A program made the translations under genes and the position numbers. Below, piece after piece: positions 1,847 through 30,875 of a stretch of DNA of 34,715 nt. The stretch comes from a virus. Each line of letters opens with the position of its first letter. Position 1 is the first letter of the stretch. The notes under the pieces are model-generated. The model saw only the letters and a program-made list of their open reading frames with translations, made no database searches and was not told the DNA's origin. The stretch is from positions 1 to 34,715 of the IMG/VR virus record IMGVR_UViG_3300020036_009482; one strand, 5' to 3'.

Positions 1847-3961
1847 ATGCCGGCAACAATTTTTAACTCATCCAAGGTAAAGGCTTTAAAAGAGACTTTA
1901 TCACTTAACGGAGGGGCCGATGTTATCAGCTCCACCACAGATCCAACGGCAGTAGCGGTTGACGCTCTTAGGGGGTCGTTGCTTTTAAACACCTCAAACG
2001 GTGAGATTTATAGAAAGCTTGATGATGGTAGTACCACTAACTGGCAAATAGTTGGTTCCAGTGGTGCCAGTGGTATTAACTACATTGAGAATCCGATCGC
2101 AGAGGCGAACACCGCAGGTTGGGCAACATATGCCGATGCCGCTGCCTCAAGGCCAGTGGATGGAACGGGTGGATCTGCAAACGTTACATGGACCAGAACA
2201 ACCAGCTCTCCTTTGCGAGGTATTGGTAGTTTCTTATTCACTAAAGACGCAGCTAACAGGCAGGGTCAGGGGGTAAGTTATGATCTTACGATTGATGCAG
2301 CCGATCAGGCTCGTGTTTTGCAAATTAGTTTTGATTATGAGATCGCATCGGGGACGTACTCAGGTGGCACACCTTCTACTGATTCTGATCTTATTGTTTA
2401 TTTTTATCGCACAACTGCGACTGGTAGGCTTATTGAACCTTCTGTCATCAAACTTGATGGCGGGGTGTCCGGTGTAAAATATTCTTACCGAGGAGAAATC
2501 CAGGCGGATTCTGATGCAACCGGATATCGTTTGATTATACACGTAGCTACAACAAGCGCATCGGCTTACACGGTTAAAATGGATAACTTTGTTGTAGGGC
2601 CCAGCAAAAACGTCGCTGGTTCTATAACAACTTCTCCAGTTTCATACACCCCGACATTAACAACATCAGGCGGCGGAAACATCACTTTGAACGCCACTGG
2701 ACAAATTGCTCCAAATGGTTGGTGGAGAAGAAATGGTGAATTTTTAGAAGGGCAAATATCATTTAGAAACGGCAGTGGTGGTGGGGCCACAGGAACTGCC
2801 GGAACTGTTCGGGTAGGCTTGCCAACTGGTTTAACTCCAAATACCTCAAAGATGGCCACAACCGCTGCGGGTCTAAGGGCAGATGGCCATGCCTCCTTGG
2901 GTACTACGTCCGATGTCGAGGCGACTGTTTTTGTTGATATTTCCGGTTACATAACCTTTTACTTTCAGGGTGGTGCAAACTTACTTGCGGTTTCAGATTT
3001 AGCAGCAAACTATATTGTCACGGCGTCTTTTAGATACCCAGTAAGCGGATGGGGAGCTACTGCAACGTTAGGACAAGATGCTGATACTAGGGTTGTTTCT
3101 TTAAGAGTTGGAACCACTGGAGCACCGACCGGCACTGTTGCCTCTAGTATAGGATCTTCGACAACAATTCAATTTAACAACGTAACAAATGACACTCATG
3201 GCGGATATGTCGCTGCTACCGGATATACTGTTCCAGTTGGTGGCTGGTATCAGATCCACGCTCAACAAGCCATTAGCCACGCTTCGGTTGCGGTTAACCA
3301 AGAGGCTGTAATGGGCCTCTACGTAAATGGAGTGCTTGTATCCACCGGCCCTACGACAAAATTTCAAAGCACTGGTGTGGTTATTTATTATCCTTCTATG
3401 GATGACACTAGGCTTTTAAAGGCCGGTGACATTGTTACTGTAAGGGTTTCTTCAACAGGAACCACCCCAGTCACAGCTTCCGATTCTAACGGGAACAATT
3501 TAATTATCAATCGAATATCTGGGCCCGCCCAAGTAGCAGCAAGCGAAGTGATTGCCTGTAAACTTAGGCTTCCAAGTAACCAAGCTGTAAGTGGATCTAG
3601 CGCAACATTGGACTTGTCTACGGTTGTATTTGATTCTCATGGTGGAGCTGATACCGCAAACGATCGATACAGAGTCCCTGCCCCAGGTTACTATAGGGTT
3701 TCGTGTGGAATAATCGGAAGTTCTTTAACCTCCGGAAGCATTGTTCAGATATTAATTACCGTGAATGGAACATCAAGATGTACGAGATCTCAATTTGCAG
3801 TTTCAACCGGAGAGGTTTGTGTTGTTGCTGAAGATGTCTTTCTTTTAAACTCGGGAGACTTAGTCGCTGTTACTGTAGGATCCACTGACACAAGTTGGAC
3901 TGTAACGGGTGGAACAGAGGCTGATTCAAGTTTTGCTATTCAACGAATAGGCGGAATCTAA
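1847..3961 (+). CDS. tail fibre / receptor-binding protein with tandem C1q/TNF-like C-terminal jelly-roll domains
   Basis: 704-aa ORF with AAGGAGG upstream. Two C-terminal segments fit the C1q-like pattern: ...TGYTVPVGGWYQI...LKAGDIVTVRV... and ...YRVPAPGYYRVS...LNSGDLVAVTV... Confidence 0.6.
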   Translation: MPATIFNSSKVKALKETLSLNGGADVISSTTDPTAVAVDALRGSLLLNTSNGEIYRKLDDGSTTNWQIVGSSGASGINYIENPIAEANTAGWATYADAAASRPVDGTGGSANVTWTRTTSSPLRGIGSFLFTKDAANRQGQGVSYDLTIDAADQARVLQISFDYEIASGTYSGGTPSTDSDLIVYFYRTTATGRLIEPSVIKLDGGVSGVKYSYRGEIQADSDATGYRLIIHVATTSASAYTVKMDNFVVGPSKNVAGSITTSPVSYTPTLTTSGGGNITLNATGQIAPNGWWRRNGEFLEGQISFRNGSGGGATGTAGTVRVGLPTGLTPNTSKMATTAAGLRADGHASLGTTSDVEATVFVDISGYITFYFQGGANLLAVSDLAANYIVTASFRYPVSGWGATATLGQDADTRVVSLRVGTTGAPTGTVASSIGSSTTIQFNNVTNDTHGGYVAATGYTVPVGGWYQIHAQQAISHASVAVNQEAVMGLYVNGVLVSTGPTTKFQSTGVVIYYPSMDDTRLLKAGDIVTVRVSSTGTTPVTASDSNGNNLIINRISGPAQVAASEVIACKLRLPSNQAVSGSSATLDLSTVVFDSHGGADTANDRYRVPAPGYYRVSCGIIGSSLTSGSIVQILITVNGTSRCTRSQFAVSTGEVCVVAEDVFLLNSGDLVAVTVGSTDTSWTVTGGTEADSSFAIQRIGGI

Positions 3962-3963
3962 TA

Positions 3964-4761
3964 ATGGAATCGCGCGAGCAAATCTTTGAGGAGTTTTTCA
4001 CTGCAAAGTGGATTGCCGAAGATGGGCTCGCGCGTTTAGTTCCAAAAGAAGAAGATCAAAAGGAGCCGCACTTTAATGTATTGGGCCAAGAGAGCCCTCG
4101 TAATGATAATGGCATTTTGTTTCTAGCCTATTTCATTGCCATTTCTTGGGCAGCGGGTATTCGAGATCAAGTTAGAACTAAACAACTTCAAATTGGATCC
4201 ACAATAGAGAGACTTGTAAGGCTACCGTTTAGAGGATTGTTTAATAGAAGGGCTGCCGGAGATAAAAACCCAAACAACGTTTACGAGGCGCACGACAACT
4301 ATGTCGGAATTGTTGCACTATCTACTCTTTATGGGTTTTCTTTCACTCATGAGATACTTTCTTACGGGGGACGAAAAGGATGGAACTACAACAACGTCGA
4401 ACCAGAAGTCTATAGACTCGAAAGCCAAAGACAACCAGGAGAAGTAGCTCTGTATTGGCTTTGCGCTAGCACTAGCCCAGGATTTATTGAGTTAGCCTCT
4501 TTACTTTTTGGAATAGTTATAAACATGTTTAAGCGGAACCCGGGGGAGCACATGCTTACATGGCTTCGCTTGTTTGCACTTAACCATGTTGAAATACACC
4601 AATGGTGGGCTCGTGTGCCCATAGTCCTGGTTTCCCAAATATGGAAAATAGTTATGTATTTCAATTACGATAATTTATTCACGATAACTGGCGGATATTT
4701 TGTTGAGGATCACCCTATTCGCAGAATGGCCAAGAGGCTTGGCTCTGAATGGGGGTTTTAA
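3964..4761 (+). CDS. hypothetical protein (one hydrophobic segment)
   Basis: 265-aa ORF tightly packed after the fibre gene. No motif recognised. Confidence 0.6.
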   Translation: MESREQIFEEFFTAKWIAEDGLARLVPKEEDQKEPHFNVLGQESPRNDNGILFLAYFIAISWAAGIRDQVRTKQLQIGSTIERLVRLPFRGLFNRRAAGDKNPNNVYEAHDNYVGIVALSTLYGFSFTHEILSYGGRKGWNYNNVEPEVYRLESQRQPGEVALYWLCASTSPGFIELASLLFGIVINMFKRNPGEHMLTWLRLFALNHVEIHQWWARVPIVLVSQIWKIVMYFNYDNLFTITGGYFVEDHPIRRMAKRLGSEWGF

Positions 4762-22493: not shown

Positions 22494-22652
22494 ATGGACG
22501 AAGATAGGCTTGATGAACTGGAATATATAGTTCGTGAATCACCAAGATCCATGGTCGAACTCTACCGAACAGATGTCATCCAACTCATCGACCTCGCACG
22601 AGAAACCCTCAAAACTCAAAAAGACCAAGAGGAAAAAGATCTGGGGATCTGA
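22494..22652 (+). CDS. 52-aa helical ORF, probably the true N-terminus of the downstream HNH protein (frame broken at an A5 run)
   Basis: Not in the track because it is under 60 aa. It encodes MDEDRLDELEYIVRESPRSMVELYRTDVIQLIDLARETLKTQKDQEEKDLGI and ends inside the 22534 ORF. Confidence 0.4.
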   Translation: MDEDRLDELEYIVRESPRSMVELYRTDVIQLIDLARETLKTQKDQEEKDLGI

Positions 22653-22947
22653 CCCCGCCTTCCTCAAAGCAATCCGTAAACTACCTTGCATACTCTGTGG
22701 GAGCCCTCCTCCCACCACTGCCTCTCACATAAAAACCCGCGGCTCAGGAGGCAAAGACGAACCCTTCAACGTCACACCCATGTGCTTTGACTGCCACCGC
22801 TACTTTGAAGATAATCGCAGAATCGTAATAATGAACAAATCCTACTTTCGCCAATATCTGAAAGAATTAGGTTGGGAAATCTGGTTCCAAAACAATAAGT
22901 TAATCATGCACCACCCAAAATATAACGACAAAGTAGAAATCCGCTAA
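22534..22947 (+). CDS. HNH-type nuclease (DUF968/Ref-like; C-x2-C ... H ... C-x2-C-H)
   Basis: Motif LPCILCGSPPPTTASHIKTRGSGGKDEPFNVTPMCFDCHRYFE. The N-terminal 39 codons from the GTG are low-complexity and overlap a better-looking frame. Confidence 0.65.
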   Translation: MNHQDPWSNSTEQMSSNSSTSHEKPSKLKKTKRKKIWGSDPAFLKAIRKLPCILCGSPPPTTASHIKTRGSGGKDEPFNVTPMCFDCHRYFEDNRRIVIMNKSYFRQYLKELGWEIWFQNNKLIMHHPKYNDKVEIR

Positions 22948-23912: not shown

Positions 23913-24102
23913 CGAAGGTAAACTAAAAGTATTCACACCCAAGGGTTGGGTTAGACCCTCTCATGGGGACTATCTTATGCCTATTGACAAAACCACGACC
24001 CTCATCATCAACGGTGACGCCATGGAATATCTTATGAAGAAAGATGAGAGGGATGAACCAAGCCAAGAGTCCGTTGAATTAGACGAGCACATTGATGCGT
24101 GA
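23854..24102 (+). CDS. hypothetical protein
   Basis: ATG lies 7 nt after GGGAG. The 3' end overlaps the terL GTG. Confidence 0.5.
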   Translation: MELIKLGKRKITARKYSQVDEGKLKVFTPKGWVRPSHGDYLMPIDKTTTLIINGDAMEYLMKKDERDEPSQESVELDEHIDA

Positions 24103-25454
24103 CTCCAGAAATCGAAGCCTACGCTAGAATTATCCAGGGCCTACACGAAAAGTTCCAGCCACACCCTGCCCAAATAAAAATAGGCCAAGCCCTCATAAGA
24201 GATAACTTCAAAGACGTATTTGTTGAGGCAGGACGAAACCTAGGTAAAACAACACTCGTTTGTTACCTTCTATGGAGATGGGCTGCCCTTAACCCCGGAA
24301 GTGAGAACTACTACTTTGCTCCATACATGAAGCAAGCCCGTGAGATTGTGTGGGCATCTTATATGCTTCAAAACTTTGGTCCAAGAGAATGGGTCTTTGA
24401 TGAGAACAACACTGAGATGCGTATCCCTTTTAGAAACGGCTCATTCATCAAGGCCGATGGCTCAGACAACGTAAATGCTTACCGGGGAGTTAAACCCAAC
24501 GGACTTATCGTGTTTGATGAGTTTAAAGACTTTAGGCCAGAATTCTACGATGCCTTCGACCCCAACCGCGCAGCTTACAATGCTCCACTAATTATCATCG
24601 GCACCCCTCCTGATAGGCAATGCCAGTTCTCAGAGGTTAGAGACGCATACAAAAAGAACCCAACTAAAGCCTACTTCCACGCTCCCACCACAGATAATCC
24701 CTACATCAGTAAAGAATGGCTCGAATCAAAAAGACTAGAGCTTATTGAACGGGGCGAGGAAGACGTATGGCAAAGAGAATACCTAGCCCTGCAAGTAACC
24801 AGTGGCGCAACAAAAATATTCCCAATGATCGACAAGTCTTTAGTCAAACCTCATGGCGAACTCATGCATTCAATAATGAGAGATTTAAAACGGCTAGAAT
24901 GGATTTGGTTTGCCGATCCTGCAGCCGCCTCAACATTTGCTGTACTCTTTGTAGCCTACAACCCATATACCAAGATGCTCTATTTGCTTGATGAGATCTA
25001 CGAACAAAACCAAGCTCAAATGACTGTCGTGCAAATCGGTAAACGCATTTTAGAAAAAAGAGATGAGCTAAATTCAAGAGCCGAGTGGAGACAGGGCTAC
25101 GATGAGGCAGCAACGTGGTTTCAAAACGAAATGCTTGATCACTTCAGTGAACATCTCGAACCAAGCCAAAAGTCAGCAAACGATAAAGAAAGCGGACTCA
25201 CACTCATCAAAGACGCCATTTTAAAAAACAAAGTCGTTATTTCAGACCGCTGCGTTAAGACGTTTAGAGAGATGGATAATTATTACAAGGATAGAAACGG
25301 TAATATCCCCAAGAAAGATGACCACAACATTGATAACCTTCGATACATTCTTGCGGCCCTGTATTACTCGCTTCATTCCGAGAAAGAAGAAGAAATTGAC
25401 GATTATCCACTTGGCGGCAGGTCTACAAGTCGTAAATTAACAGGTATACTTTAG
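24099..25454 (+). CDS. terL: terminase large subunit
   Basis: Walker A-like EAGRNLGKTT, Walker B-like LIVFDEF, and C-terminal nuclease motifs (WFADPAAAS, DEIY, DDHNIDNLRY). 451 aa. Confidence 0.9.
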   Translation: MTPEIEAYARIIQGLHEKFQPHPAQIKIGQALIRDNFKDVFVEAGRNLGKTTLVCYLLWRWAALNPGSENYYFAPYMKQAREIVWASYMLQNFGPREWVFDENNTEMRIPFRNGSFIKADGSDNVNAYRGVKPNGLIVFDEFKDFRPEFYDAFDPNRAAYNAPLIIIGTPPDRQCQFSEVRDAYKKNPTKAYFHAPTTDNPYISKEWLESKRLELIERGEEDVWQREYLALQVTSGATKIFPMIDKSLVKPHGELMHSIMRDLKRLEWIWFADPAAASTFAVLFVAYNPYTKMLYLLDEIYEQNQAQMTVVQIGKRILEKRDELNSRAEWRQGYDEAATWFQNEMLDHFSEHLEPSQKSANDKESGLTLIKDAILKNKVVISDRCVKTFREMDNYYKDRNGNIPKKDDHNIDNLRYILAALYYSLHSEKEEEIDDYPLGGRSTSRKLTGIL

Positions 25455-25684: not shown

Positions 25685-27889
25685 ATGTCTAGCAACTTCG
25701 ACGCCTTTGAATCTGACTCAGATACTTACGTCAACAAACCCAAAGAAGAAATTTGGGAACTAGGGGATATCTATTCGAAAGATAAATGGGATGAGGTAGC
25801 CAAATGGCTTGTCGGCCAAAAGAACTGGCTTCAAAGTGAAAACAGAGAACGCTTTAGATCCATTGAACACAACCTCTCGTTGTATAAAGGTATTCAATAC
25901 CAATCTCAGTCGATAAAAGAATCCGCAAGAGACCAAGGTATCGATAGATCTCAAAGCATTACTAAGATCGTCAGCAATCACATTTACGATCTCGTTCAAA
26001 ACAAAGTCAGTCGATTAATTAAGTATCGACCGGGAATTGTGGCCCTACCTACATCTAACGAGCTTGAAGATAGGGTTGGCGCTAAGATGAGCGAGAGTCT
26101 CATCCGTCACATTTGGTATCTCCAAGACTTCGAGGGCAAAGTTCAAAACGAGTTTGTGAAACTTGTTCACGTTATGGGTGAGGCCTACCTTGCTGTTTTG
26201 TGGGATCCAAACCAAGGCGAAATCCACGAGGACATGAGGGATTACCTTAAGGACCTTAATGAAAAAGGTGAGGTAATTCTTAAGTCTGACGATGGCACTC
26301 CAGAACTTGATGAAGAAGGTAAACCAATCAAACTAACCAAGGCTGTTAAATACGGTGATACGGTTTATGAGATTTGGTTTACGATGGATTGTTTGCTTGA
26401 GCGTAAAGATCAGTACGCAAAAGTAGATTACATGTATCACCGGGAACTTAAGAGCCGTGGTGAGATTAAAAGAAAATATCCTGAAGCCTTAGATCAAACC
26501 ACAGCCGATGATGGCAATAATTATTACGACTACGAAAAGATGCAGGTTAAGAAGCTGCATGACAAGGTTGCGGTATGGACCTTCTATCACCGTAAGACTG
26601 AAAACCTACCTAAGGGCGCAGTAATTAAACTCATTGGAAATAAGGTGGTTGAATGTAAACCACTTCCCTACACAAGCGGACAATTGCCAGTTGAAAGACT
26701 TACTGACATTGATCTACCAGGCCAAGTTCATGGCGAATCCTTTATTACGATGATCAAAGGATTAACGGGAACATACAATAATTTAACGAACATTATTTTA
26801 AGAAACCAAGTAATGGTTTCGCATCCTAAATGGGTGTTCCCAGCTGGTTCTATTAAGAAGGAATCACTTGGTAACGACATCACACTTGTCGAATATAAGG
26901 GTCCACAGCCTCCGGCGCTAGTGCAACAAAACCCAACACCGGCTGAGGTATTTACCTTTAGAGACAACCTTAAGACTGAGTTTCAACAAATATCGGGCAT
27001 CTTTGGAGTTAGTCGAGGTGAGCCGCCTCCAGGAATTAAAGCAGGCGTTGCGCTTCAGTTCTTAGCCGAGCAAGAAAACGAACGATTTAACGAAATGGTT
27101 CTTAAGTACAACGAATGGATAAGACAGGTTGCTGTTAAAACTCTTGAGCGTTGTGCAGATAACTACGAGGCCGATGATAAACGAATGATCATGGTTCTTG
27201 GCACCCAGAATAAATGGATGACCACGTTCTTTGATGTGAAGTATTTAACTAGGAAATACGACGTTAGAGTTCAAAACGCCTCAGCCCTTCCACAAAGCAA
27301 AGCAGCTAGAACCCAATATCTTTTAGATTTAAATCAACAATTCCCTGAGCAAGTTCCTCCGGAAATGGTTTTAGACCTTTTAGATATATCTCAGCCTGAG
27401 AAGTTTATTGATTATTCAACCGCTACGGTAAGAGCGGCTGAAGCTGAGAACGAATCTATTATGCAAGGAGTGGGTAAGCTTAATGACCCACAAGACTACG
27501 AAGATCACATTATGATGTGGAAAGTTCACGTTAAACAAATGCGTGAGTGGTCATTTAAAAACCAAACTCCACAAGAGATTCAGCAAAGAATGAAAGATCA
27601 TGTAGCGGCTCACGAGATGCTCATGATTGATCGGGCTCAAAAGAATCCCGCTTATTTAGAACAGTGTATGGCATTACCAGGCTGGCCGATATTCTTCCCA
27701 ATTGAATCGGCTATGCCTGCTCCAAGCCCAGCTCCAATCGGTCCAGAAGCAGGCCCTCCCGCTGAAGGACCCATTGGGGCTGAGCCTGGTTTACCCGTGA
27801 ACATACCTCCGGCTGAACTTGTAGATCAGTTGGAGGCAGAAAATATTACGCCCACAGGAGGCCCTATCGAACCATCAACAGCCATATAG
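25685..27889 (+). CDS. portal protein
   Basis: 734-aa ORF directly after terL and before the scaffold and coat genes. It has a P/A/G-rich C-terminal tail. Assignment rests mainly on size and synteny. Confidence 0.75.
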   Translation: MSSNFDAFESDSDTYVNKPKEEIWELGDIYSKDKWDEVAKWLVGQKNWLQSENRERFRSIEHNLSLYKGIQYQSQSIKESARDQGIDRSQSITKIVSNHIYDLVQNKVSRLIKYRPGIVALPTSNELEDRVGAKMSESLIRHIWYLQDFEGKVQNEFVKLVHVMGEAYLAVLWDPNQGEIHEDMRDYLKDLNEKGEVILKSDDGTPELDEEGKPIKLTKAVKYGDTVYEIWFTMDCLLERKDQYAKVDYMYHRELKSRGEIKRKYPEALDQTTADDGNNYYDYEKMQVKKLHDKVAVWTFYHRKTENLPKGAVIKLIGNKVVECKPLPYTSGQLPVERLTDIDLPGQVHGESFITMIKGLTGTYNNLTNIILRNQVMVSHPKWVFPAGSIKKESLGNDITLVEYKGPQPPALVQQNPTPAEVFTFRDNLKTEFQQISGIFGVSRGEPPPGIKAGVALQFLAEQENERFNEMVLKYNEWIRQVAVKTLERCADNYEADDKRMIMVLGTQNKWMTTFFDVKYLTRKYDVRVQNASALPQSKAARTQYLLDLNQQFPEQVPPEMVLDLLDISQPEKFIDYSTATVRAAEAENESIMQGVGKLNDPQDYEDHIMMWKVHVKQMREWSFKNQTPQEIQQRMKDHVAAHEMLMIDRAQKNPAYLEQCMALPGWPIFFPIESAMPAPSPAPIGPEAGPPAEGPIGAEPGLPVNIPPAELVDQLEAENITPTGGPIEPSTAI

Positions 27890-27906: not shown

Positions 27907-29058
27907 GTGGAAAGCGCCTTTGATTCAATAATGGAAACCCCGCAGGCACCTGCCGAACCCGTCGTTAAACAAGGTGGATCGGCCAGTCAGATGAGTGATG
28001 AAGAGATTAACGTTTTGGACGTAAATGAGAACGACCCAAAAGAAATCGTTAAAAAGGATCTTGCTGGCAAAGTTGACGATATTGATAAATCTAGAAAGCA
28101 AGAAAAGGACACCGGCAAAAAAGCGGTTGAAGAGCTTAAGGCTGACGATAAAAAAGAGCTAGAAGCTAAACTTAAGAAATACTTGTTTAAGAAAGGCGAT
28201 AACGCCTTGGAAATAGACGAGGATTACGAGTTCACTCACAAGATCAACGGTAAGACAGAGACCTTCAAGGTTAAAGATTTGCTTAATGACTTTGCAGGGA
28301 AAACTGATTGGTCGCGTAAATACAATTCATTGCATCAAGAGCGTACGAAATTCACACAGGAACGCGATACAATGTATAATAAAATTCAAGAATTCCACCG
28401 ATTAGCTGTGGAGGAGAAGGCCCCTCAACTTGCGCTAGAGTACTTGGCGGAGTCGATGGGTGTAGATCCAAAGCAGTTTTGGCAGGAATTTAAGAAGACC
28501 GTCGAGGGGTCGGTCGCTCAATCTGCAAACCTCACGCCCGAAGAAAAACGGGCTAAGGAGCTGGAGCAGGAAATTGAGTACTACCGCAAGCGCGATGAGA
28601 TTAAACGCAGAGAGACCGAGGTTAATAAACAAAACCAAGAGCTCTTAGGGCGGATAAAAGAAACTCAAAGCAAATACGGAATGAACCCCGAACAATTCAA
28701 GGCTTGTTACGATGACATGGTAGCTGAGGCCCAAAAGATTGGTTTTGATGTCTCTAAGCTTACCCCTGAACAGGTTGGAGAGTATTTCGATATTCTCAAT
28801 AAGCAAGAGCAAGTGACTTCGTTAGTTCTAGAAATGGCTGGCGACGATCAGAAAGCTCTCGCGCTTAAAGATGACTTGTATCAAGCGTGGAAAGCAAATC
28901 CTCAATTCACCATTGAGGACATCAAAGACATTGCGACTTCAGTCTTTGGCACACCCCAGAAATCTTCATCAAGACTGGCGCAAAAAGTAAAAAAAGAACA
29001 ACAACAAACAAAGAAAAGTCTTCCACAGTTTGAGCCACTCTCAGGTTGGGATGACTAA
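27907..29058 (+). CDS. scaffolding protein
   Basis: 383-aa K/E-rich helical ORF between the portal and coat genes. Confidence 0.6.
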   Translation: MESAFDSIMETPQAPAEPVVKQGGSASQMSDEEINVLDVNENDPKEIVKKDLAGKVDDIDKSRKQEKDTGKKAVEELKADDKKELEAKLKKYLFKKGDNALEIDEDYEFTHKINGKTETFKVKDLLNDFAGKTDWSRKYNSLHQERTKFTQERDTMYNKIQEFHRLAVEEKAPQLALEYLAESMGVDPKQFWQEFKKTVEGSVAQSANLTPEEKRAKELEQEIEYYRKRDEIKRRETEVNKQNQELLGRIKETQSKYGMNPEQFKACYDDMVAEAQKIGFDVSKLTPEQVGEYFDILNKQEQVTSLVLEMAGDDQKALALKDDLYQAWKANPQFTIEDIKDIATSVFGTPQKSSSRLAQKVKKEQQQTKKSLPQFEPLSGWDD

Positions 29059-29072
29059 TAACGAGGAGCCAA

Positions 29073-29384
29073 ATGGCAACATTTAACTTAACCTCCGCTA
29101 CTAATCTTTTTAAGATTAAGTACGGAAAACTATCAGCAGAAACCTATAACGCAGCAAACGTAATGCTCGGACGAGTAAAGAAAGAATATAACTTTACCGG
29201 TAAGAGAATGGACGTTGCAGTTCCTACCTCCTTTTCAGGCGGTGTTGGTGCTGGATCGCTACCCCTAGCTAACTCAGCGGCTTACCAAGACGCTCAGATT
29301 ACAGCTAAGAAGAACTACTCGGTTGTTGAAATCGAGCGTGAAGCAATTGCTGCATCTGAAAATGATGAAGGCGCTTTCGTCCGT
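29073..29384 (+). CDS. major capsid protein, exon 1 of 3
   Basis: GAGGAG RBS upstream. The N-terminus is MATFNLTSATNLFKIKYGKL... The unspliced frame runs 6 codons into the insert and stops at 29400-29402. Confidence 0.75.
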
Positions 29385-29638
29385 ATGGTTATTGCGGCTT
29401 AAGGTAGGAATACCTTTTGTAAATTGGGCAAAATCGGTGAACTCTGAGATGAGAATACCGAGGTAAGCTAGAGAGTTAAAATAATCTAGCCACCGTAACG
29501 CGTAGTGGGTGACCCCCGAAAGGGAATATAAACCACCAAGAGTGTCCGACTCCCCGAACGGGAGATAATGTACGCTGAGCTAACTCGAATAAAAGGGTTA
29601 GAAGTAGGGGATAAAAAGCCTCTACGATAACAGGTCTG
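29385..29638 (+). ncRNA. group I-like (IA-type, P7.1-bearing) intron 1 in the coat gene, ORF-less
   Basis: Helices P1-P9.1 can be drawn (see findings). A paralogous copy with compensatory changes is at 30427-30683. Boundaries are inferred from P1 (CCGU/GCGG), a terminal G, and frame restoration. Confidence 0.65.
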
Positions 29639-30426
29639 ATGACCAAAGAAGTTGTTAAAAAGGGTGTTGAATCCTTTAACCGCAACATCAGCCGTCAGCT
29701 TTTCGGTTCTGGTAGCCTTGGTGTTACAACTGCAGCTGCCGCTGGCGGTACTGCTACTGCACCCACAGTAATCATTTCTACGGCTACATGGAAGGAAGCC
29801 AATTTCGAAGAAAAGGATTACATCATGGTTGATTCTGTAGCTAACCCCTACAGCACATCAAACATCTGGGAAATCACTGCGGTTGCTCCTAGCACCCGTA
29901 CACTTACTCTTGCTCGAATTGCTGGATCGGTAGACTTGACCGGTGATAGCGGAGCTAAGACTTTGTACATGCAGTATTCCAAAGACAATGAACTCACTGG
30001 TCTTAAGACTGCTTTGGACGCCACTTCTGGAACCCTTTACGGTGTAACCGTTGGTCGACGATGGCAGGCTTTCCAAAAAGCTGCCGGCGGTTCAGGTCTT
30101 ACCACCGATTTCATGAACGAAGTTATGCTCGGAGTTGAGCGTCAGTGTGGCAAAGTGCCCAACCTCATCATCACAAGCTACGTTCAATACCGCAAACTCT
30201 TGAACCAACTCGAAGATCAGAAACAATACATCATTGAGCCCAGGATGCCTGAACTCAAAGGTAAGGTTTCTTTCCGAGGCGTTGAGTTCATGAGCAATGC
30301 TGGTCCTGTAGGTGTGTTTGTTGATCGTTTCGTTGAAGACGACAGAATGTACTTCTTGAACGATAACTTCATGACCATCTATCACCGACCCGGATCTCCT
30401 GCTTGGGCAGAAGACGACGGAACCGT
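29639..30426 (+). CDS. major capsid protein, exon 2 of 3
   Basis: Open frame continuous with exon 1 after the insert is removed. It contains ...FNRNISRQLFGSGSLG... and ...WAEDDGTV. Confidence 0.75.
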
Positions 30427-30683
30427 AAACTTAGCTATTGCGGCTTGAGGTAGGAATATCTCATGTAACTTCGGGCAAAATCGGTGAACCCTGAAACGGG
30501 AATACCGAGGTAAGTTGGGATTAAAAGCCCCCAACCACCGTAACGCGTAGTAGGTGAAACTCGAAAGAGAATATAAACCTACCAAGAGTGTCCGAGACCC
30601 AGAACGGGTTAAAATGTACGCTGAGCTTATTCGAACAAAAGAATAAGAAGTAGGGGATAAAAAGCCCTTACGGTAACAGACTG
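30427..30683 (+). ncRNA. group I-like intron 2 in the coat gene, ORF-less, paralogous to intron 1
   Basis: It has the same helix set as intron 1, the same 5' context CCGT|A, and the same 3' end ...AACAG(N)CTG|AT. Confidence 0.65.
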
Positions 30684-30792
30684 ATTTCTAAGAAAAGCAT
30701 CTGCGGATGACTACGAAGGACGATACGTGTCCTATAGCGAATTCTATTGCCCCCCGTCATTTCATGGGGTGCTCACAGGACTTGCTACCTAA
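30684..30792 (+). CDS. major capsid protein, exon 3 of 3
   Basis: A 36-codon open frame with no start codon or RBS, encoding (V)FLRKASADDYEGRYVSYSEFYCPPSFHGVLTGLAT. A terminator follows. Confidence 0.65.
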
Positions 30793-30813: not shown

Positions 30814-30841
30814 CCTAGACCCCACGGTGGGTCTAGGTTTT
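30814..30841 (+). terminator. intrinsic terminator after the coat gene
   Basis: CCTAGACCC (30814-30822) pairs with GGGTCTAGG (30829-30837) around a 6-nt loop, followed by TTTT. Confidence 0.75.
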
Positions 30842-30875
30842 AGAGTTTTATAAACACCTACGAGGGGATAAAAAA

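What the first reader, a model, noticed from the sequence alone, without database searches (positions are those of the whole stretch)
29385..29638. Insert 1 folds into a complete group I (IA-like) helix set
A canonical order of helices can be drawn by hand:
- P1: exon CCGT (29381-29384) pairs with GCGG (29394-29397). The terminal U-G sits at the proposed cleavage site.
- P2: 29401-29406 / 29411-29416, capped by a GGAA tetraloop.
- P3: 29424-29430 / 29543-29549.
- J3/4: AAA.
- P4: 29434-29438 / 29457-29461, with an A-rich internal loop.
- P5: 29442-29444 / 29451-29453.
- P6: 29467-29472 / 29485-29490.
- P7: 29500-29504 / 29571-29575.
- P7.1: an insertion between P7 and P3' (29505-29536) capped by a GAAA tetraloop, as in phage IA introns.
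- P8: 29550-29554 / 29560-29564.
- J8/7: a 6-nt A-rich segment.
- P9: 29580-29586 / 29595-29601.
- P9.1: 29604-29610 / 29619-29625.
- Terminal G at 29638.
At 254 nt it is in the size range of minimal ORF-less group I ribozymes.
Basis: inference. Interest (0 to 1): 0.7.

Follow-up and report, generated by a model that had tools for sequence, protein, structure and literature searches.

The report
Group I intron splitting phage capsid gene
The 254-base insert is a small, protein-free self-splicing (group I) intron that interrupts a phage's major capsid gene; a sister copy sits 1 kb downstream in the same gene, and the type is known although the standard Rfam model does not detect this family.

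Summary
Window 29385-29638 interrupts the major capsid protein (MCP) gene of a small tailed phage.

- **Excision:** Removing exactly these 254 nt, plus a paralogous 257-nt insert at 30427-30683, restores a 402-aa MCP. It is collinear at both junctions with uninterrupted homologues.
- **Splice sites:** Both 5' exons end in CCGU, which pairs with a conserved GCGG guide sequence and gives a U.G wobble pair at the cleavage site. Both inserts end in G.
- **Helices:** Across 28 relatives from viral metagenomes, 96.3% of pair cells are base-paired. With the partner strand slid by 1-3 columns as a control, 28.5-41.7% pair. 35 of 52 pairs show compensatory changes, including the P3/P7 pseudoknot.
- **Rfam:** The Rfam group I model (RF00028) gives no hit at all. 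That model treats P7 as fixed sequence, and this family has a co-varied P7 (GCGUA/UACGC).
- **Link to known introns:** Two half-length covariance models (CMs) built only from this family both hit the self-splicing Twort orf142 introns, collinearly and in register.
- **Polymorphism:** A 98.6%-identical phage contig lacks intron 2.

Verdict: an endonuclease-free (ORF-less), IA-like group I intron, and a new member of a known kind. Splicing itself was not tested.

The parts
29073..29384 (+). MCP exon 1 (104 codons, ends ...GCU UUC GUC CGU)
   Evidence: ORF list. Alignment with uninterrupted homologues shows GAFVR|MTKE is continuous. Spliced translation.
29385..29638 (+). Intron 1: ORF-less group I ribozyme, 254 nt. 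This is the finding.
29381..29397 (+). P1: exon CCGU plus A29385 pairs with U29393-GCGG 29394-97. The U29384.G29394 wobble lies at the 5' splice site.
   Evidence: Read directly. Intron 2 has the same CCGU/GCGG pairing. In relatives the exon end and guide sequence co-vary: CGGU/GCCG, GGGU/GCCC, GUCGGU/GCCGAC, GCGGU/GCCGC, CGCU/GGCG.
29387..29392 (+). 5' part of the internal guide sequence, GGUUAU. It can pair with the first six bases of exon 2, AUGACC 29639-44, to form P10 (6 bp, one G.U).
   Evidence: Read directly. This is an inference; it has no covariation support.
29401..29416 (+). P2 hairpin: AAGGUA / UACCUU with a GGAA loop
   Evidence: Intron 2 has GAGGUA/UAUCUC, with one compensatory pair. 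Relatives have a hairpin at this position.
29424..29549 (+). P3: 29424-30 (UUGGGCA) with 29543-49 (UGUCCGA). It encloses P4-P6, the 5' strand of P7, and P7.1.
   Evidence: 7 pairs, 100% paired, 5 with changes on both sides.
29434..29461 (+). P4 (29434-38 / 29457-61) and P5 (29442-44 / 29451-53), with A-rich J4/5 and J5/4 loops. J3/4 is AAA, 29431-33.
   Evidence: P4 is invariant, but it was part of the search pattern, so this is uninformative. P5 has 2 of 3 pairs compensatory.
29468..29489 (+). P6: 29468-72 / 29485-89 (G29467-C29490 also pairs in this copy)
   Evidence: 5 of 5 pairs compensatory.
29498..29576 (+). P7: A29498 and GCGUA 29500-04 pair with UACGC-U 29571-76. C29499 is bulged. G29500-C29575 is the candidate guanosine-binding pair. 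P7 is pseudoknotted with P3.
   Evidence: 2 of 6 pairs co-vary; across loci, GCGUA/UACGC, GCAUA/UAUGC and GAGUA/UACUC occur, and the outer pair is A-U, G-C or C-G.
29505..29536 (+). P7.1 insertion between P7 and P3'. Outer stem 29505-08 / 29533-36; inner stem 29515-17 / 29522-24 capped by GAAA.
   Evidence: Many relatives lack the inner stem.
29550..29570 (+). P8 (29550-54 / 29560-64) followed by J8/7 AUAAUG (29565-70)
   Evidence: 5 of 5 P8 pairs compensatory.
29580..29625 (+). P9 (29580-86 / 29595-601) and P9.1 (29604-10 / 29619-25). The P9.1 closing pairs and loop read GGAUAAAAAGCC and are nearly invariant across the family.
   Evidence: 6 of 7 pairs compensatory in each helix. Collinear with P9 and P9.1 of the Twort introns.
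29638..29638 (+). Terminal G (omega-G) before the 3' splice site
   Evidence: Family tails end ...GRUAACA N3-6 G.
29639..30426 (+). MCP exon 2
30427..30683 (+). Intron 2: paralogous copy, 257 nt, 83% identical to intron 1. It also follows CCGU and also ends in G.
   Evidence: It is absent from the 98.6%-identical contigs L045 and L046.
30684..30792 (+). MCP exon 3 (last 35 codons plus TAA)

Best explanation
[quoted passage not shown] It interrupts the major capsid protein gene of a roughly 35-kb tailed phage.

**Proposed mechanism.**
- After transcription the RNA folds into the P3-P8 and P4-P6 domains around a P7 guanosine pocket. This fold is shown by covariation.
- The guide sequence GCGG pairs with the exon end CCGU to form P1, placing a U.G wobble at the 5' splice site. 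This is shown by sequence and covariation.
- An external guanosine then attacks after U29384. The guide sequence aligns exon 2 through P10. The freed exon 1 attacks after the terminal G29638 and joins ...GUCCGU to AUGACC.... These chemical steps are inferred from the known group I mechanism.
- A sister intron at 30427-30683 is removed in the same way. One mRNA then encodes the intact 402-aa capsid protein.

**Mobility.** The intron carries no homing endonuclease. How it moves is not established.
For: 1. **Precise in-frame excision.** Joining exon 1, exon 2 and exon 3 gives a 402-aa protein. It matches more than 100 uninterrupted homologues, up to 91% identical, without gaps at GAFVR|MTKE and DDGTV|FLRK.
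2. **Splice-site hallmarks.** U is at -1, paired to G of a guide sequence, and the intron ends in G. This holds in both copies. The P1 exon end and guide sequence co-vary in relatives.
3. **Core topology with the P3/P7 pseudoknot.** 96.3% of cells are paired, against 28.5-41.7% for slid controls. 35 of 52 pairs are compensatory, and 0 of 500 shuffles reach the observed values. P7 co-varies at three positions around a bulged base, next to an invariant G-C pair. The two window copies alone show nine compensatory pairs.
4. **Independent fold.** The thermodynamic fold recovers the helices, z = -3.9.
5. **Link to proven group I introns.**
   - The 3'-half CM R1 hits Twort orf142 intron 2 at L132:1224-1322 (26.2 bits, E 7e-4).
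   - R1 also hits intron 3 at 1540-1631 (24.2 bits, E 2e-3). Both hits run to the introns' 3'-terminal ...CAUAAUUG.
   - The 5'-half CM R2 hits intron 2 at 1103-1196 (21.3 bits, E 4e-3) and intron 1 at 736-828 (E 0.04).
   - These hits are collinear. The 5'-half hits lie inside the intervals RF00028 assigns to those introns. The 3'-half hits start inside them and extend beyond their ends through P9.1.
6. **Intron-like biology.**
   - Intron 2 is absent from a 98.6%-identical phage contig.
   - Relatives sit in split helicase, terminase, tape-measure and capsid genes, often beside HNH or LAGLIDADG endonuclease ORFs.
   - The family occurs in about 128 IMG/VR contigs and in the genomes of 28 bacterial species.
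Against: - RF00028 gives no hit, not even at E<=10 on a 271-nt slice.
- A sequence-only profile of the family does not reach the Twort or T4 introns.
- The family-CM E-values for Twort are modest (1e-3 to 1e-2) and come from a shortened calibration.
- P1 is short: 4 bp plus one further pair.
- P4 is invariant, so it is untested by covariation.
- No RNA-level or biochemical evidence of splicing is available here.
Confidence: 0.9

Rival explanations
1. The insert is a group I-derived RNA that no longer self-splices. It would be either a decaying intron in a defective phage genome, or an intron that depends entirely on a host or phage protein cofactor.
For: There is no RF00028 hit. P1 is short. 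No maturase or endonuclease ORF lies in the intron. The sequence comes from metagenomic assemblies, so viability was not observed.
Against: The capsid gene is essential, and an identical intron 1 is found in two further independent assemblies. The two copies have diverged 17% yet keep 51 of 52 pairs, through nine compensatory and four wobble changes. That pattern means selection on the fold. The core junctions are near-invariant across the family.
Confidence: 0.06
2. The capsid gene is truly split. The three pieces are translated separately and assemble. The inserts are structured intergenic RNAs or selfish elements that are never removed from the mRNA.
For: The exon 1 ORF reaches a stop codon 18 nt into the insert, and exon 2 happens to begin with ATG.
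Against: That ATG is the conserved internal Met/Leu of GAFVR-M/L-TKE in uninterrupted homologues. Exon 3 has no start codon and encodes only 35 residues. The junctions fall at exact codon-preserving positions with U at -1 and a terminal G. A near-identical phage has exons 2 and 3 fused.
Confidence: 0.02
3. The insert belongs to another mechanism: translational bypassing, a group II intron, or a DNA-level excision element.
For: None specific. This rival only rests on the fact that the gene is interrupted.
Against: The insert is 254 nt with a covariation-supported group I topology. There are no group II domains and no Rfam hit of any kind. No flanking recombinase or terminal repeats were found beyond the paralogous copy. 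Bypassing elements are far shorter (own knowledge: the T4 gene 60 gap is 50 nt).
Confidence: 0.01

Closest known systems
Staphylococcus phage Twort orf142 group I introns (subgroup IA2; AF132670, annotated 'contains group 1 introns')
   Same: - Same order of elements: J3/4, P4, P5, P6, J6/7, P7, an insertion, P3', P8, J8/7, P7', P9, P9.1 and a 3' tail ...UAACAnnnnUG.
- Both half-models built from this family hit these introns collinearly.
- Multiple small ORF-less introns in one phage structural gene.
   Different: - The P7 sequence is GCGUA/UACGC instead of GACUA/UAGUC.
- The insertion between P7 and P3' is a single P7.1 hairpin, sometimes extended, not P7.1 plus P7.2.
- RF00028 scores the Twort introns at 64-101 bits and gives no hit for this one, even at E<=10.
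- A sequence-only profile does not connect them.
Phage T4 td / nrdB / nrdD group IA2 introns
   Same: - Phage-borne IA-type ribozymes that interrupt conserved protein genes.
- The U.G pair in P1 and the terminal G.
- T4 nrdB is also under-scored by RF00028: 35.7 bits against a cut-off of 50.
   Different: - The T4 introns carry, or once carried, homing endonuclease ORFs; this one has none.
- The family CM hit to nrdB is not significant (12.3 bits, E 0.9).
Introns in capsid and tail genes of Cluster J mycobacteriophages (PMC3706429), and group I introns in crAss-like phage MCP genes (PMC7886860)
   Same: These are precedents for introns in phage capsid genes, including several introns in one MCP gene.
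   Different: - Different hosts and lineages.
- In the crAss-like phages the introns were recognised through endonuclease domains, not through ribozyme structure.
- No sequence comparison with the mycobacteriophage introns was made here. Some crAss-like records do carry members of this family.

Membership tests
Group I intron | P1 helix formed by the 5' exon end and an internal guide sequence, with a U.G wobble at the 5' splice site | tested here: met
   CCGU(A) 29381-85 pairs with (U)GCGG 29393-97. The same pairing occurs in intron 2. The exon end and guide sequence co-vary in relatives.
Group I intron | Terminal guanosine (omega-G) immediately before the 3' splice site | tested here: met
   G29638 and G30683. 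These are the only boundary placements that give both U at -1 and a terminal G while restoring the ORF.
Group I intron | Conserved core P3-P9 in canonical order, with the P3/P7 pseudoknot and the P4-P6 and P3-P8 domains | tested here: met
   96.3% of cells paired, 35 of 52 pairs compensatory, slid controls 28.5-41.7%. P3 has 5 of 7 pairs co-varying. P7 co-varies.
Group I intron | Guanosine-binding site: a G-C pair in P7 next to a bulged nucleotide | tested here: met
   The order is A29498-U29576, then bulged C29499, then G29500-C29575. The G-C pair is invariant, while the flanking pair and the bulge vary (A-U with C, or G-C with A). This is tested at secondary-structure level only.
Group I intron | Match to the curated covariance model Rfam RF00028 (a diagnostic, not a defining property) | tested here: not met
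   No hit at the gathering score, or at E<=10 on 601 nt or 271 nt. Controls: Twort 64-101 bits; T4 nrdB 35.7 bits, below the cut-off of 50.
Group I intron | Detectable homology to experimentally characterised group I introns | tested here: met
   Family-only CMs R1 and R2 hit the Twort orf142 introns collinearly. E-values are 7e-4 and 2e-3 for the 3' half, and 4e-3 and 4e-2 for the 5' half. These E-values are rough.
Group I intron | Guanosine-dependent self-splicing that yields ligated exons | not testable with these tools
   Only indirect evidence is available: excision restores the conserved ORF, and an intron-less allele exists for intron 2.
Subgroup IA2 (phage-type) | Two hairpins, P7.1 and P7.2, between P7 and P3' (definition as given in PMC4227781) | tested here: not met
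   There is one hairpin, with outer stem 29505-08 / 29533-36, and an optional inner extension. So the element is IA-like but is not filed as IA2.
Subgroup IA2 (phage-type) | Extended domain 9 (P9.0, P9.1, P9.2) | tested here: inconclusive
   P9 and P9.1 are present and co-vary. They are collinear with Twort. No P9.2 was found. P9.0 was not examined.
Mobile (homing) group I intron | Intron-encoded homing endonuclease ORF | tested here: not met
   No ORF of 40 aa or more on the intron strand lies inside 29385-29638. Other family members do lie beside HNH or LAGLIDADG ORFs.

The most novel reading that the evidence does not exclude
The two ORF-less sister introns are each other's closest relatives. 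They share an identical guide sequence, and both sit directly after CCGU|AU in the same gene. One of them is absent from a 98.6%-identical phage.

This could be a natural snapshot of guide-sequence-directed ectopic transposition of a group I intron inside a protein-coding gene of a DNA phage. That route (reverse splicing or an equivalent) has so far been supported only circumstantially, mainly for rDNA introns (PMC3984707).

Separately, the family appears in about 128 viral contigs, 77 phage records and 28 bacterial species, and none of the members tested is detected by RF00028. Group I introns in viromes may therefore be systematically under-counted.
Probability: 0.15. Interest if true: 0.65.

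Novelty: new member of a known kind. Interest (0 to 1): 0.35.

Why it matters
**Annotation.** Gene callers split this capsid gene into pieces of 109 aa and 269 aa plus an uncalled 35-aa tail. Recognising the introns restores one 402-aa MCP.

**Detection.** The standard detector (Rfam RF00028) misses a widespread, well-conserved phage intron family. The family is found in marine podophage-like contigs, in crAss-like phages, in phages of Staphylococcus, Clostridium and Bacillus, and in cyanobacterial genomes. This agrees with recent statements that phage group I diversity exceeds current models (PMC11878797). The 28-sequence alignment with its structure could seed a new model.

**Intron spread.** The pair of sister introns after the same CCGU|AU, together with an empty-site allele, is a tractable case for studying how endonuclease-free group I introns spread.

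Tried and rejected
- **Rfam scans.** The whole window at gathering score, then 601-nt and 271-nt slices at E<=10, gave no group I hit. The only matches were chance ones to CRISPR repeat, snoRNA, sRNA and miRNA models.
- **Megablast** of 5 kb around the site against phage genomes gave no match.
- **Sequence-only nhmmer profile** of the family against the Twort and T4 introns gave no hit. Structure-aware half-models were needed.
- **First guess for intron 2 boundaries** (exon 2 ending at 30432) added two residues, NL, that are absent from all homologues. An interim correction in notebook entry 2 (30428-30683) was off by one. Final coordinates are 30427-30683.
- **Alternative P1** with the 5' splice site after GGUU or AGCU was rejected. 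It would need a 3' splice site that does not follow a G and would not restore the conserved protein.
- **Search for further copies** of the GCGG-guide sub-lineage found nothing in viral contigs. In metagenome contigs it found only the already known contig. The transposition idea therefore could not be tested on more sites.
- **In-frame restoration in nine relatives** using the same splice rule: five were consistent (L022, L030, L057, L069, L108). Four were ambiguous because of short flanks or uncertain sites.
- **A full-length CM** of about 270 positions was not attempted, because calibration would exceed the tool's time limit.
- **Literature search** for 'P7.1a' to pin down the IA sub-subgroup found nothing.

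Full report
**Context.** The window is a small tailed-phage genome segment. The relevant genes are:
- portal, 25685-27889
- scaffold-like protein, 27907-29058
- a capsid gene
- an SU10-type adaptor
- terminase, 24099-25454

The capsid gene is broken. An ORF at 29073-29402 (109 aa) and an ORF at 29639-30448 (269 aa) are separated by the finding. The region 30448-30792 holds a further coding tail.

**The observation.**
- The one refinement is an extra outer P7 pair, A29498-U29576, across a bulged C29499.
- An unconstrained minimum-free-energy fold of 29381-29644 recovers P2, P3, P4, P5, P6, both stems of P7.1, P8, P9 and P9.1.
- That fold has energy -79.6 kcal/mol. Shuffles average -62.1 +/- 4.5 (z = -3.9), and 0 of 200 fold as well.
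- P1 and P7 cannot appear in that fold, because P7 is pseudoknotted with P3.

**A second copy.**
- Repeat finding and reading show a paralogous element at 30427-30683 (257 nt). It is 83% identical overall.
- Of the 52 core pairs, 14 differ between the two copies. Nine are double compensatory changes and four are wobble-compatible. The single 'break' is an alignment artefact at a 1-nt deletion in P7.1.

**Excision restores the gene.**
- A search with the conceptually spliced protein found more than 1000 homologues. Many are uninterrupted, 397-404 aa long, and up to 91% identical.
- Their alignment shows ...EGAFVR|MTKEVV... and ...DDGTV|FLRKAS... as continuous sequence.
- With intron 1 at 29385-29638 and intron 2 at 30427-30683, the spliced ORF is 402 aa and ends at TAA 30792.
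- My first boundary for intron 2 was wrong by six bases. The homologue alignment exposed the error.
- Among the boundary shifts allowed by repeated bases, only the stated ones give U at -1 and a terminal G.
- Both 5' exons end in CCGU, and both introns carry the same GCGG. The resulting P1 is CCGU(A)/(U)GCGG with a U.G wobble at the splice site.
- In intron 1, the bases just 5' of that guide (GGUUAU, 29387-92) are complementary to the start of exon 2 (AUGACC). This is a canonical P10 arrangement, and it is an inference.

**Polymorphism.**
- Contigs L045 and L046 are 98.6% identical to the window. They carry intron 1 (100% identical) but lack intron 2 exactly.
- The empty site reads GGAACUGUA|UUCCUUCGA, against GGAACCGU[intron]AUUUCUAAGA in the window.
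- Four synonymous differences lie within 8 nt of the junction: 30424, 30687, 30690 and 30691.
- There are no differences in the flanking 96 nt upstream or 316 nt downstream.
- Three of the four strengthen pairing with the intron's 5' region. One turns a U.G into a C-G in P1. Two create CUAAG 30688-92, complementary to CUUAG 30430-34.
- This pattern fits either co-conversion from an intron donor or selection for P1- and P10-type pairing. Both readings are inferences.

**Relatives and covariation.**
- Blastn against phage genomes found partial to near-full matches in phages of Bacillus, Staphylococcus, Clostridioides and others.
- The matches lie in split genes next to endonuclease ORFs. Examples are a RecD-like helicase with an 'endonuclease' ORF in PJN02 and an HNH ORF in phage ROSA.
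- Two core-motif scans of IMG/VR returned 41 and 102 stretches, about 128 distinct loci.
- A family consensus matched 77 phage records, including crAss-like phages and a Leptolyngbya phage.
- A genome scan found the family in 28 species: Firmicutes, filamentous cyanobacteria and Paludibacter.
- I aligned 28 compact members, including both window copies (A1). I then counted pairs for P3, P4, P5, P6, P7, P7.1, P8, P9 and P9.1, with P3 and P7 written as a pseudoknot.
- 96.3% of cells pair, against 28.5-41.7% when the partner strand is slid. 35 of 52 pairs change on both sides. No shuffle of 500 reaches the observed values.
- P3 has 5 of 7 co-varying pairs. P6 and P8 have 5 of 5. P9 and P9.1 have 6 of 7 each.
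- P4 is invariant, but it was in the search pattern, so it says nothing either way.
- Across all loci, P7 occurs as GCGUA/UACGC, GCAUA/UAUGC and GAGUA/UACUC. An outer A-U, G-C or C-G pair lies across a bulged base, and the G-C pair next to the bulge is invariant. That is the arrangement of the guanosine-binding site.
- P1 also co-varies: exon ...NNGU| is followed 8-13 nt later by a G-initiated complement, then by a P2 hairpin.
- Applying the same splice rule to nine relatives restored a long open frame in five. Four were ambiguous.

**The Rfam test.**
- RF00028 does not hit the element at any threshold tried.
- It also misses the family members in L001-L003 at the gathering score, and the phiCD211 member at E<=10.
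- Positive controls give the three Twort orf142 introns 63.6-100.9 bits. The bona fide T4 nrdB intron gets only 35.7 bits, below the cut-off of 50. A canonical intron in phiCD211 gets 41.7 bits.
- The printed structure lines show that RF00028 treats both P7 strands as unpaired, sequence-specific positions (...AGACUA... and ...AUAUAGUC...). This family differs exactly there, because P7 has co-varied.
- That is a plausible reason for the miss, but it is an inference and not a test. The tool cannot score edited sequences.
- A 2025 survey states that the Rfam and GISSD models are incomplete for phage introns (PMC11878797).

**Link to proven group I introns.**
- I built two covariance models from the family only. 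R1 covers P3', P8, J8/7, P7', P9, P9.1 and the tail. R2 covers P3, J3/4, P4, P5, P6, J6/7 and the 5' strand of P7.
- Both were run with filters off on 45 kb that included the Twort orf142 record (AF132670) and T4 nrdB.
- R1 hits Twort intron 2 at 1224-1322 (26.2 bits, E 7e-4) and intron 3 at 1540-1631 (24.2 bits, E 2e-3). Both hits end at ...UAACAUAAUUG, the intron 3' end.
- R2 hits intron 2 at 1103-1196 (21.3 bits, E 4e-3), intron 1 at 736-828 (E 0.04) and intron 3 at 1381-1471 (E 0.6).
- The 5'-half hits fall inside the Rfam-defined intron intervals. The 3'-half hits start inside them and run on through P9.1. All are in the right order and register.
- The E-values are rough. Even so, it is very unlikely by chance that the best non-family hit of each model would land side by side in the same intron.
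- The T4 nrdB hit is not significant (E 0.9).

**Subgroup.**
- The insertion between P7 and P3' makes the element IA-like.
- IA2 is described as having two hairpins (P7.1 and P7.2) and a P9.0/P9.1/P9.2 domain (PMC4227781).
- Here there is one P7.1 hairpin with a conserved UGAA...AAUAUAA loop and an optional inner stem, plus P9 and P9.1.
- I therefore do not file it as IA2. It is closest to the Twort-type IA2 introns.

**Mobility.**
- The intron has no ORF.
- The window encodes a free-standing HNH protein (22534-22947), but it lies just upstream of the terminase, where packaging-associated HNH proteins are common. A role in homing is untested.
- The two copies are each other's nearest relatives in my sample: 80.5% core identity, against 78% or less to the others. 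They share the guide sequence and P2, and both follow CCGU|AU.
- That fits intragenic spread directed by the guide sequence. Reverse splicing needs only 4-6 complementary bases and has only circumstantial support so far (PMC3984707).
- Scans for further copies of this sub-lineage found none, so this stays a low-probability reading.

**Verdict.** The element is an ORF-less, IA-like group I intron in a phage capsid gene, with a sister copy in the same gene. It is a new member of a known kind. Its practical interest is that a large family escapes the standard model. Splicing itself remains to be shown.

Noticed in passing
window 30427-30683: There is a second, paralogous ORF-less intron in the same capsid gene, also after CCGU. 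It is absent from the 98.6%-identical contigs L045 and L046, so it is polymorphic in the population.
   Followed up: yes
window 30424 and 30687-30691: Four synonymous differences from the intron-less allele cluster within 8 nt of the intron 2 junction. None occur for 96 nt upstream or 316 nt downstream. This could be a co-conversion tract or adaptation of the exon to P1/P10 pairing.
   Followed up: partly
L135 about 3562-3752 and about 3822-4010 (boundaries read by eye from the print-out and never computed; the print-out itself suggests roughly 3561-3752 and 3823-4011): A related phage (MCP P0099) has two different inserts of about 190 nt in the C-terminal part of the same capsid gene. Each follows ...GGU and ends ...AAUUG or ...AAAUG, with P7-like ACGACUGA/ACAGUCUGA. 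They look like very small group I introns of another family. RF00028 does not hit them either.
   Followed up: partly
L002 (phiCD211) 2499-2745 and 2771-3035: A full-length member of this family sits about 25 nt upstream of a canonical group I intron (RF00028, 41.7 bits). Both lie between the 'minor tail protein' and 'tape measure' CDSs, so these are tandem introns of two different types. The first one is unannotated.
   Followed up: partly
window 29608-29620, and all family members: The P9.1 closing pairs and loop, GGAUAAAAAGCC, are almost invariant across 28 diverse members, as are the P7.1 loop motifs UGAA and AAUAUAA. This suggests tertiary contacts that were not identified.
   Followed up: no
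window 22534-22947: A free-standing HNH endonuclease ORF (137 aa) lies upstream of the large terminase (24099-25454). It is probably packaging-related. Any role in intron mobility is untested.
   Followed up: partly
window 30814-30842: A GC-rich hairpin, CCUAGACCC...GGGUCUAGG, is followed by UUUU just after the capsid stop codon. It looks like an intrinsic terminator.
   Followed up: no
L133 (T4 nrdB) 1358-1598: RF00028 scores the classical T4 nrdB intron at 35.7 bits, below its own gathering score of 50. Gathering-threshold scans therefore miss even textbook phage introns.
   Followed up: yes
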